Shown here one piece after another: positions 49,301-52,300 of a stretch of DNA of 64,000 nucleotides. The notes beneath the pieces were generated by a model. The model ran no database searches, was not told the DNA's origin, and worked only from the letters and a program-made list of their open reading frames with translations. The position numbers and the translations under genes were made by a program. The stretch comes from Chiloscyllium plagiosum (lineage: Eukaryota). Numbering within the stretch: position 1 is the first letter of the stretch; the number at the start of each line of letters is the position of its first letter. The stretch covers positions 35,476,107-35,540,106 of the forward strand of contig NC_057719.1 in NCBI RefSeq assembly GCF_004010195.1, read 5' to 3'.

Positions 49301-52300
49301 ATCCAAAACAACAACTCTAACACAAATCTTAAACTCCTGGAAGTATATAAAATTACCAGAATGCTTGCTTGTTGTAGGTGATGTGCCCAAGTTGTAAACA
49401 GATTTTGGCGCATTTGCTGATCAAAGTATCCTGCATAAGCGATGAAAGCAGCTGATAGTAAACAGTCTCCAGCTATAGTGGCCATCTGATTCTTGAAAGT
49501 CTCACTGGTCTTTTCCCAGCGATCTCGTTCAGCAGACAAACTCTTCAGTAGTGCAGTACTTCGGTTAACCTGAAGGAGGATTTTGTGCATTTTATGGATA
49601 AAAGAAACATGATATTTTGAACCCAAATTATCCAAGCTTTAGTTGCTGTCCAACCCACCCTAACTCTTTTAGAAAGACTTACATAACACAGACAGAAGGT
49701 GCATTAGAAAATCTTTACTTAAACATTACTCACCTTCGCTTCTACTGCTGCAAGATCAGCTTTAATAGCTTGGGCTTCAGATATCAGAATAGCATACTCT
49801 TCCTTGTAACGAGCAATACTGGTTTCCAGGTCACGGATCATTTGCTCAACCTCATCAGCCTTCTGCTGGTTCTCTTTTGCATCATCTTCCAGCTTTTGTA
49901 GTTCATTGCGCAAGGGTTCAACTCGTTTTAACATATCAGCATAATTAAGCTACAAAACAAAAGAAATTATATGAAAGTAAAACAATTATGCAAGGTTATA
50001 ATATGTCAAGACAACAGATATTGAGAGAAAAAGAGTGGGAAAAGGAGTGGAAACAAAATAATGATTAATGGATTGTACGACTAGTCCTGATCAAACTTCT
50101 TACATTCTCAAATTACTCACTTGTGCAATTGCCCACTTCACCATTGGACCACAAGCCAAAGATGCTCTGTTGACTATTTCATAGTTGTAGCTTGGATTGG
50201 ACATGTAGTTTTTCTTCATCTTCTCTCGGATAACATCACTGATGAATAAAGATGAACAATATTAATATAGCTAATCTCTTAAGTTTATGGATGCAAATTT
50301 CACAATTGATACAGCACTACAAAAAAAAAAAGGTGCCAGTTATAAACTAGGTGGTGCACAGCAATGAAGAGCAGCAATAGAGTCAAATGCAAGATAAATG
50401 TGATATTTTAAAATTAAAATAATGAATACCTTAATTCTTCAGTATTAAAGTTGACTATGCTGGTGATGAAATTATCTCTGATAATAACTTGTCTGATCTT
50501 TTTCCAGTCATTTGTCTCCTCACCCAGCAGGAGACAGATTGATTCTAAAGCGAGTTTTACTGCAGCAGGCGGATTGGCCATAGCTCTCACTTCAACAAGA
50601 TGCTGCTTCTTTATAGAGCTCACAGCTAATAGAGGGGTGAAAAGAAAGGGGCTTTAAATGGACATGCAAGAGGATAAAGGTGTACACAGTTGCTGGGACT
50701 GGAGGGGAAATTTGTAATCTGAAGACCAGCAGTACATTTAGTCAGACAAACTTCAAATTTGTTTGCTTAATAAATGCTACATCAAATAGGAAATTCTATT
50801 TATGGCCAACTGTTATGCAATTTTTCTTCAGCTTCAAGCTGGTCTTCTAGGAAATTTCCTTTTACTCCAGCAGCTGTGTGCACCCCATTATTCACCTGAT
50901 TTCGTCAGCTGAAAAATTTACTATGGTCGGTATGAAGTTTTCCCTCATAATGATCGAACGGATTTGTTTCCAGTCAGTTGTACTTTCGCCCAGGAGAAGA
51001 CAGATTGACTCGAGTGCTAGCTTCACTGCACCTGGCGGATTAGCCATTGAACGAACCTCTACCAAGTGCTGCTTCTTGATCGATTTTACAGCTAATCAGA
51101 CCAGCACCGTAGACCAAAGTGCAAGTAAGCAGTAAGAGAAAAAGTGAAGATTAGGGGAGACAGAAAATTGAGATAAAAAAATCACATAGAAAAGATCAGT
51201 TAGTCAGTTGTTTAAAAAGGCAGAAAATTAATAGGTTCATAGTTCCAAAATATAAAGTAAACAAAATGTCACTAAAGATAGCAATTCAGCATACTAGACC
51301 AATTTCAAAGATTTTTTTTAAAAAAGGTTGCAATTTAAAACACATCTAACCATTCTGAGCCTCAATAACAGCAGGCTCTACCATATCCAGATCTTCCTTT
51401 ACTTTCATCTGCTTGTCAGCAATTATTTCTTGTTGTTTGTGAAGCTGCTCCTGAATTTCCTGGCTCATAACCTATCAAAACAGAGCGAAAGGTATCTTAC
51501 TTGATCAATTCTATTCTGAACTGGAGTTTAATGTCAATTAAAGTGTCCTCTCTTTCAAATTACCTTCTTCTTTTCTGCTTCTTGTTGATCTTTCACCATT
51601 TTCTTCAACTTATCATTGGCTGCTGCATTTTTAACCTCCAGTTCTTGGCTTTTAATTCTCAGATCACGCCGTAATTCTTCAACCTAGAATGAGTAAAAGG
51701 ACTTTTTATTTTCAGGTACAAATTATTAACAGAGCAAATTTATGAAGTCTGACAATTTATTGTATTTCCACAGTATCACCTTTAAATAGTATCCCAGGTT
51801 TATAAAATATATATTTGCCCAAAACAAAATTTGTCAGAATTCTTTGGTGTGCTGTTCAAATGACTTTTTGTTGATGCAAAAAGTCTAAGGAGAACATTTA
51901 TGAAATCCTTAAAAAGGGCAATGAAGAGTCAAGAGTGACAAAAAGAAGTCATGTTGGATTTAGAAGAATATGTAAAACTTTAGTCATCTTTCATTGCTGA
52001 AATTGCAGTTTAATCTATAGCACAGAATATAAAGATTAAACAGATACAATGCAGGAGGAGATAAAGAGAATTTTTGGCCATCGTTACTGGTAGATTATAA
52101 CTAGTTAATAGTAGTATCGGAATTACTTTTTTTTAAGCCAAGTCACATTCAGAAACAAAATCACTGCTCAATCCGCTTACTTGCCCTCAAAGTAGGACAA
52201 ATTAATGTAAATGGAAGCTTGGAATCACAATTTTCATTAAAACATTACACAAATTTAGTGAGATTCATGGATTTGCTAACTGTACCTGGTCAACTGTTTC

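What the first reader, a model, noticed from the sequence alone, without database searches (positions are those of the whole stretch)
50430..51091. Tandemly duplicated, mutually exclusive exons give cytoplasmic dynein-1 two interchangeable microtubule-binding domains
Seen: two paralogous exons, each exactly 196 nt with phase 1->2, intact AG/GT sites and open frames, sit 270 nt apart between the CC1 exon and the exon encoding the rest of the MTBD. Because 196 is 1 mod 3, including both or skipping both shifts the frame, so only one can be used. They differ at 16 of 66 residues (K/S, S/A, G/A, S/E, T/N, Q/K, S/Q, I/V, M/I, E/D, P/T, T/S, S/N, A/T, D/E, I/L). Synonymous sites are heavily diverged while the protein is conserved, which points to an old duplication under purifying selection rather than a dead copy or assembly artefact. 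Known: exon A is nearly identical to the single mammalian MTBD exon as I recall it, and this segment includes the tubulin-contacting helices H1 and H3, where the charge changes (K->S, S->E, Q->K) lie in or near. Inference: one gene makes two motors with different microtubule affinity, processivity or tubulin-code sensitivity. I recall that an alternative MTBD exon may have been reported in non-mammalian vertebrates, so novelty needs a literature check; its presence in a cartilaginous fish would date it to at least the jawed-vertebrate ancestor.
Basis: partly seen in the sequence, partly recalled or inferred. Interest (0 to 1): 0.93.

Follow-up and report, generated by a model that had tools for sequence, protein, structure and literature searches.

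The report
Dynein with two swappable microtubule feet
In this shark-like fish the single gene for the cell's main minus-end transport motor carries two old, alternative versions of the part that grips microtubules and splices in one or the other, a choice that many fish, frogs and reptiles share but that mammals appear to have given up.

Summary
Confirmed. Two 196-nt exons (A 51091-50896, B 50625-50430, minus strand) of an elasmobranch DYNC1H1 encode alternative H1-H4 halves of the microtubule-binding domain (16 of 64 whole codons differ). RNA-type contigs show all four either/or junctions and no A-B or skip-both junction; one run has B only. A is 62/64 identical to mouse. B recurs in sharks, rays, bichirs, teleosts, frogs, turtles and squamates, and all 12 lamprey/hagfish models are B-type. 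All mammalian and bird proteins seen were A. A looks like the regulated exon (longest AG-free zone of 41 acceptors); neural use of A is inferred, not shown. Shark H1 is unchanged; differences lie at the CC1 end, H2-H3 loop, H3 and H4. Both isoforms are already in RefSeq models; a flatworm DHC1 exon pair is in print, and this scan noted an arthropod case. Ten paper searches found no vertebrate study, though I vaguely recall one. Different affinity is untested.

The parts
19200..62764 (-). [quoted passage not shown]
   Evidence: tblastn of shark and bird dynein-1 proteins, mostly 95-100% identity per exon to a carpet-shark protein
51351..51469 (-). constitutive exon, end of stalk coiled coil CC1; common donor for A and B (phase 1)
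   Evidence: joints 51351-51091 and 51351-50625
51094..51271 (-). AG-free zone of about 180 nt before exon A, with a long pyrimidine tract
   Evidence: longest of 41 acceptors, median 29 nt
51199..51207 (-). CTGACTAAC, likely distant branch point of exon A (-116 to -108); also fits the ACUAAY QKI/SF1 motif (motif recalled)
   Evidence: occurs once in 44 kb of the gene's sense strand; function inferred
50896..51091 (-). exon A, 196 nt, MTBD end of CC1 to H4-H5 loop, mammal-like version (human 3296-3359)
   Evidence: 62/64 identical to mouse MTBD chains; spliced in X2 and X3
50626..50895 (-). 270-nt intron between A and B; never seen spliced as A-B joint
50663..50668 (-). TGCATG (RBFOX motif, recalled) 43 nt before exon B and 228 nt after exon A
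   Evidence: 0.09 expected per 270 nt, so weak
50430..50625 (-). exon B, 196 nt, alternative MTBD version shared with non-mammalian vertebrates and cyclostomes
   Evidence: 78% identical to mouse, 100% to Heterodontus and Narcine isoforms, 94% to lamprey; spliced in X1, X2, X3
50121..50238 (-). constitutive exon, MTBD H5-H6 and start of CC2; common acceptor for A and B (phase 2)
   Evidence: joints 50896-50238 and 50430-50238

Best explanation
A tandem duplication of the single 196-nt exon coding MTBD helices H1-H4, older than the lamprey/jawed-vertebrate split, gave DYNC1H1 two mutually exclusive exons. SHOWN: each mature message carries A or B; both are translated in frame; both are conserved; B folds as a normal MTBD. 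INFERRED (about 0.85): choice is regulated by cell type or stage, with B the default and A switched on through its distant branch point; double inclusion or skipping is removed by frameshift and decay. INFERRED (about 0.6): A is the neural-enriched form and B the general form; mammals, and perhaps birds, fixed A and lost B. INFERRED (about 0.6): the fixed changes K3295S, S3329E, Q3335K, I3339V, E3343D, T3348S/N (mouse numbers) tune microtubule affinity, stalk-registry coupling or sensitivity to tubulin tails and MAPs without changing the core contacts.
For: Four either/or joints at CT..AC ends, none for A-B or skip-both, in contigs of 3 runs; X1 has only B joints, X2 about equal, X3 more B. 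0 substitutions in 392 exon nt against 14 and 13 in 529 flanking intron nt in two related organisms (Fisher p 0.0005, 0.001). A and B isoforms annotated in the same species for Amblyraja, Narcine, Polypterus, Erpetoichthys, Conger, Danio, Oncorhynchus, Chrysemys. 9 of 9 lamprey and 3 of 3 hagfish cluster members are B-type; B+cyclostomes 99/98, A 95/95; A+B without cyclostomes rejected, p-AU 0.013. Six diagnostic positions separate 9 of 9 A rows from 17 of 17 B rows. Model of a teleost B isoform: six MTBD helices at pLDDT 83-90, 1.3 A rmsd to the mouse stalk 3wuq. A has the longest AG-free zone of 41 acceptors; long zones go with distant branch points and mutually exclusive exons (PMC2991248, passages).
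Against: Tissues of the runs are hidden, so neural versus non-neural use is not shown; contig depth is a poor measure of level and the raw-read run gave 0 reads. The upstream-to-A joint was seen in 1 of 3 contig runs only. No affinity or motility data; H1 and K3298, K3299, R3306, K3334, R3337, R3342 are the same in shark A and B, net charge differs by one, so the functional gap may be small. B drifts much more than A (up to 14 of 64 residues from shark to frog, against 2 for A from shark to mouse). Trees rest on 64 columns; the AU groups were chosen after seeing the first tree. Loss of B in mammals and birds rests on protein records, no genome was searched. RBFOX and UGC motifs are each near chance level.
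Confidence: 0.7

Rival explanations
1. Both exons are used and kept, but the two motors behave alike on microtubules; the pair persists through sub-functionalised expression (each cell type can splice only one), not through different mechanics.
For: Core tubulin-contact residues and H1 unchanged in shark; mammals run every dynein task with A alone in all records seen; B varies at up to 14 positions among vertebrates.
Against: Six positions stay fixed as A-type or B-type for more than 400 million years, including charge changes in and next to H3; shark B is 94% identical to lamprey; the same exon is duplicated again and again in invertebrates.
Confidence: 0.2
2. The difference matters for partners other than the tubulin core: acidic tubulin tails and their modifications, MAPs on the lattice, or a regulator that binds the MTBD surface.
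For: Changes cluster in the H2-H3 loop (where axonemal dyneins carry a flap that touches the next protofilament; PMC6629372, passages), H3-H4 and the H4-H5 loop rather than H1.
Against: No binding data; Q3335K and S3338Q lie in H3 beside R3337, a tubulin contact, which points to the lattice itself. Not exclusive of the best explanation.
Confidence: 0.25
3. The duplication happened only in jawed vertebrates; cyclostomes keep the single ancestral (B-like) exon and A is a fast-changed then frozen copy.
For: No A-type sequence among 12 of 12 cyclostome models.
Against: p-AU 0.013 against that tree; A keeps K3295 and T3348 as in 10 of 10 invertebrate rows, whereas B and cyclostomes share S and S/N, so A would need reversions.
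Confidence: 0.2
4. Dead copy or assembly artefact.
For: None found.
Against: Both exons spliced, saturated synonymous divergence, orthologues of both across vertebrates, unspliced contigs link B, the intron and A in three organisms.
Confidence: 0.01

Closest known systems
Mammalian cytoplasmic dynein-1 MTBD (PDB 3j1t, 3err, 6rzb; DYNC1H1 3296-3359)
   Same: Exon A is 62/64 identical; exon B is 78% identical and models to the same fold.
   Different: Every mammalian chain and protein seen carries A only; here a second version is selectable.
RefSeq-predicted DYNC1H1 isoforms X1/X2 of sharks, rays, bichirs, teleosts, frogs and turtles; curated zebrafish NP_001036210.1
   Same: Same two exon versions; shark B is identical to Heterodontus X1 and Narcine X3; the curated zebrafish protein is B-type.
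   Different: These are unlabelled database isoforms; no description of the splice event, its regulation, age or function was found.
Mutually exclusive exon of Schistosoma mansoni DHC1 (Pillmann et al. 2011, PMC3228551); alternative motor-domain splice forms noted by Kollmar 2016 (PMC5100056)
   Same: Equal-length homologous exon pair with split codons at both ends in the middle of a dynein-1 heavy chain gene (passages).
   Different: A flatworm; the passages seen do not say that it is the MTBD exon and give no function. The figure and supplements were not seen.
Tandem MTBD-exon pairs in Drosophila and other flies, beetle (Asbolus), sea spider (Nymphon), mites, Macrostomum, Romanomermis
   Same: The same exon is doubled in gene models, and Drosophila isoforms carry one or the other.
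   Different: They do not group with vertebrate A or B with support; common origin is neither shown nor rejected.
Tandem-duplicated mutually exclusive exons with distant branch points (tropomyosins, alpha-actinin)
   Same: Equal-length paralogous exons, long AG-free zone and distant branch point (PMC2991248 passages); frameshift on double inclusion is the commonest class (PMC5740500 passages).
   Different: Here the distant branch point precedes the first exon, so it cannot block A-B joining sterically; no donor-proximal branch point or U12 site was seen in the A-B intron.

Membership tests
Mutually exclusive exon cluster | Homologous internal exons of equal length, same phases, canonical splice sites, coding the same structural part | tested here: met
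Mutually exclusive exon cluster | Each exon is found spliced to both common flanks | tested here: met
   up-B and B-down in 3 of 3 contig runs, A-down in 2 of 3, up-A in 1 of 3; raw-read run had 0 reads
Mutually exclusive exon cluster | No productive transcript with both or neither exon | tested here: met
   no such joint in 3 contig runs (contigs drop rare forms); both forms hit early stops
Mutually exclusive exon cluster | Enforcing mechanism (steric, U2/U12, RNA pairing, or decay) | tested here: inconclusive
   frameshift present; no convincing docker-selector pair among 26 short inverted repeats; best branch-point match in the A-B intron is 150 nt from the donor
Cytoplasmic dynein-1 heavy chain MTBD | Orthology of the host gene to DYNC1H1 | tested here: met
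Cytoplasmic dynein-1 heavy chain MTBD | Six-helix MTBD at the stalk tip, without axonemal flap, for the B form | tested here: met
   teleost B isoform model, (close solved relatives exist, so the model leans on them)
Cytoplasmic dynein-1 heavy chain MTBD | Basic tubulin-contact residues K3299 and R3337 kept | tested here: met
   K3299 becomes R in several teleost and frog B exons
Cytoplasmic dynein-1 heavy chain MTBD | Microtubule binding and stepping by the B form | not testable with these tools
   needs biochemistry
Neural-regulated exon (PTBP/QKI-repressed, SRRM4/RBFOX-activated) | Higher inclusion of A in neurons | not testable with these tools
   run tissues are coded; ratios do differ between runs
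Neural-regulated exon (PTBP/QKI-repressed, SRRM4/RBFOX-activated) | Regulatory motifs in the expected places | tested here: inconclusive
   long AG-free zone and ACTAAC are unusual; TGC at -15 and TGCATG are near chance; read-through ORFs before A end in M-L/P-x-A in 22 of 56 cases, compatible with a kept TGC; motif meanings recalled

The most novel reading that the evidence does not exclude
A switchable microtubule-binding domain is a general, so far undescribed feature of animal dynein-1: the exon pair predates all living vertebrates (and is either shared with, or repeatedly re-invented in, arthropods and worms); B is the everyday and egg/mitotic motor of fish, frogs and reptiles, and the mammalian motor on which most structures and disease work rest is the fixed neural isoform with different track properties.
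Probability: 0.3. Interest if true: 0.82.

Novelty: new variant of a known kind. Interest (0 to 1): 0.6.

Why it matters
Dynein-1 is usually treated as one heavy chain whose variety comes from accessory chains and adaptors (a 2024 review lists splicing for the accessory chains; PMC10886578, passages). A splice switch in the track-binding foot would be a direct way to tune the motor by cell type. It offers a natural pair of MTBDs differing at 16 sites for testing how affinity, processivity and tubulin-code reading are set. It also bears on model systems: Xenopus and zebrafish have a B isoform, so egg-extract and embryo work may involve a motor foot unlike the human one used in reconstitutions. 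Because the isoforms already sit in databases and a vertebrate paper may exist outside the searched library, the novelty lies mainly in age, breadth and regulation.

Tried and rejected
Literature: 10 searches with combinations of dynein/DYNC1H1/MTBD/mutually exclusive/alternative exon/non-neuronal/Xenopus/zebrafish found no study of a vertebrate MTBD splice pair; most subscription journals are not in the library. Passages only were read in 10.1101/423376 (plus abstract and outline; tau paper, irrelevant), 10.64898/2026.09.05.749416, PMC2880287, PMC10886578, PMC7649786: none mentions the event. Two papers sought by id were not held. No supplements were read; those of PMC5100056 and PMC3228551 could show this exon. 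The look-up of sequencing runs listed no holder on record as RNA; the single-cell raw run X21 gave 0 reads, no test; only 4 of 24 listed runs were laid. No docker-selector RNA pairing found. Pfam gave no hit for the isolated 64-residue exons. Direct dN/dS could not be computed because dS is saturated. Relationship of vertebrate and invertebrate pairs unresolved: A+B+cyclostomes p-AU 0.28, B+cyclostomes+fly exon 1 p-AU 0.46. The unnamed A-like protein P0182 (3 differences, possible cyclostome A) could not be assigned to a taxon. Earlier-findings look-ups by sequence and by place gave nothing. No complex prediction was run.

Full report
Setting. The window holds the 3' half of DYNC1H1 on the minus strand, 62764 to 19200, in 41-42 tblastn pieces that match elasmobranch proteins best. 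The host is a cartilaginous fish.

Observation. Exon A (51091-50896) and exon B (50625-50430) are each 196 nt, flanked by TTAG and GT, 270 nt apart, and differ at 59 nt. Each is open between the CC1 exon (51469-51351) and the H5-H6 exon (50238-50121); A+B stops 31 nt into B and skipping both stops 20 nt into the next exon. No other exon of the gene in the window is doubled.

Use in RNA. Of 24 runs listed (none on record as RNA among holders) four were laid on 49650-52500. Contigs of X1, X2 and X3 are spliced at CT..AC ends. Joints: upstream-B and B-downstream in 3 of 3; A-downstream in X2 and X3; upstream-A in X2 only. No A-B and no skip-both joint was listed; contigs drop rare forms. X1 has B joints only, with depth over A equal to the intron level; downstream-joint depths are B 90 / A 88 in X2 and B 261 / A 179 in X3, a rough measure only. 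Raw run X21 gave 0 reads. In the two related organisms (X2, X3) neither exon shows a substitution in 392 nt, against 14 and 13 in 529 nt of the two introns around A (Fisher p 0.0005 and 0.001; synonymous sites alone are not significant, p about 0.1).

Conservation. A is 62/64 identical to mouse and equals human 3296-3359 in position. B-type sequences occur in named proteins of sharks and rays (6 of 15 listed members of a 55-member cluster; the other 9 are A), bichirs, sturgeon, many teleosts, frogs including Xenopus laevis, turtles, snakes and a skink. Eight genera have both isoforms on record (Amblyraja, Narcine, Polypterus, Erpetoichthys, Conger, Danio, Oncorhynchus, Chrysemys). The curated zebrafish protein NP_001036210.1 is B. 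Teleost read-through ORFs show the same order, A then B. All mammalian proteins seen (6 named with the segment, plus PDB chains) and all 8 named bird proteins seen were A; the salamander, chimaera and sea-turtle records seen were also A. These are protein records, not genome searches, so loss of B is likely but not shown. A is nearly frozen (0-4 differences in 8 rows); B varies by 0-14 in 16 rows.

Age. All 9 lamprey and 3 hagfish cluster members are B-type (91-94% to shark B, 72-78% to A). A 57-row tree grouped B with cyclostomes and one long-branched nematode row at 80/95 and A at 97/27. A 28-row subset, with long-branched and redundant rows left out, under LG+G4 gave B+cyclostomes 99/98 and A 95/95, and rejected A+B without cyclostomes (p-AU 0.013) and, marginally, A+cyclostomes (0.047). 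Only 64 columns are available and the groups were named after the first tree. Column counts agree: K3295 and T3348 (mouse numbers) are in 9 of 9 A and 10 of 10 invertebrate rows, while 17 of 17 B and 3 of 3 cyclostome rows have S and S/N; E3329 and K3335 are also confined to B and cyclostomes. Against this, a serine at 3295 also occurs in one fly exon, so that site can converge. The simplest reading is duplication before the cyclostome split, with A lost or unannotated in cyclostomes.

Invertebrates. Gene models with the same exon doubled were found in Drosophila, Glossina, Asbolus, Nymphon, two mites, Macrostomum, Romanomermis and the unnamed P0004, and Drosophila isoforms carry either version. 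Whether these share one origin with the vertebrate pair is unresolved (p-AU 0.28 and 0.46).

Structure. An AlphaFold2 model of a teleost B isoform (P0007, 19-row alignment) shows CC1 to 3295, H1 3299-3306, H2 3313-3325, H3 3333-3340, H4 3345-3350, H5 and H6, at pLDDT 83-90, and matches the mouse stalk structures 3wuq and 5ayh at 1.3-1.6 A; the rest of the model is poor. Shark A/B differences map to the CC1 end (K3295S), after H1 (S3307A), H2 start (G3313A, not fixed), H2-H3 loop (S3329E, T3331N), H3 (Q3335K, S3338Q, I3339V), H3-H4 (M3341I, E3343D), H4 (P3347T, T3348S) and the H4-H5 loop. K3299 and R3337, named as tubulin contacts in PMC6629372 (passages), are kept; net charge is +1 for A and 0 for B. 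That paper also places the axonemal flap between H2 and H3 and makes H1/CC1 the moving element. The differences are thus placed to tune, not to rebuild, the interface; this is inference.

Regulation. The intron before A has an AG-free zone of 178 nt, the longest of 41 acceptors (median 29, next 129; acceptors picked automatically, a few may be misplaced), with CTGACTAAC at -116, found once in 44 kb, followed by a long pyrimidine tract and a purine-richer last 25 nt with TGC at -15. B has an ordinary strong acceptor (22 of 25 pyrimidines) and a TGCATG at -43 (0.09 expected per 270 nt). Long AG-free zones mark distant branch points and mutually exclusive exons (PMC2991248, passages). From recalled knowledge of PTBP, QKI, SRRM4 and RBFOX maps, this layout fits A repressed outside neurons and activated in them, with B the default; X1 being B-only fits but its tissue is hidden. 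Exclusivity is best explained by regulated choice plus frameshift and decay; no steric, U12 or RNA-pairing mechanism was found (classes as in PMC5740500, passages).

What is known. Both isoforms are in automated RefSeq models. A mutually exclusive exon in Schistosoma DHC1 is in print (PMC3228551, passages) and Kollmar 2016 mentions alternative motor-domain splice forms without detail (PMC5100056, passages). Ten searches found no study of the vertebrate pair. Supplements were not read.

Verdict. Real, expressed, ancient mutually exclusive MTBD exons; a new variant of a known kind at best, already visible in databases. Interest 0.6: it opens a clean test of how the dynein foot is tuned, but the functional difference is untested and prior description is plausible.

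Noticed in passing
window 50597-51380: Unspliced contigs at depth about 10-12 cover the two introns flanking exon A in all three contig runs, while the B-downstream intron has a bin at depth 0; the decision intron may be removed slowly or detained.
   Followed up: no
P0350-P0359, P0269, P0270 (lamprey, hagfish DYNC1H1): All cyclostome models carry only the B-type MTBD; two of three hagfish models have Y at position 3307.
   Followed up: yes
P0411, P0347, P0401 (Drosophila), P0249, P0251-P0255, P0268, P0004: The same MTBD exon is tandemly doubled in flies, a beetle, a sea spider, mites, a flatworm, a nematode and an unnamed organism; gene predictors often wrongly include both copies.
   Followed up: partly
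P0565 (NP_001036210.1): The curated zebrafish Dync1h1 reference protein is the B isoform, not the mammal-like one.
   Followed up: partly
P0182: Unnamed ENA ORF with an A-type exon bearing three unusual changes and a GC-rich-looking flank; could be a cyclostome exon A, taxon unknown.
   Followed up: partly
P0053: B-type exon with a one-residue insertion and C>S change in H2, possibly a decaying B in some lineage.
   Followed up: no
P0271, P0374-P0382: Several turtles have 'DYNC1H1-like' records with small changes in otherwise invariant A and B positions, hinting at a second gene copy.
   Followed up: no
window 13456-14067 (+): 204-codon open frame downstream of DYNC1H1 on the opposite strand; no Pfam hit; nearest Atlas clusters are uncharacterised chordate proteins at score 0.89-0.90, a lead only.
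   Followed up: partly
window 24643-26611, 33229-34412 (+) and about 300-3600 (-): Fragments of LINE-type endonuclease/reverse-transcriptase frames in introns and downstream (identified by eye from the translations).
   Followed up: no
window 49949 acceptor: Second-longest AG-free zone (129 nt) precedes the CC2 exon just downstream of the MTBD exons.
   Followed up: no
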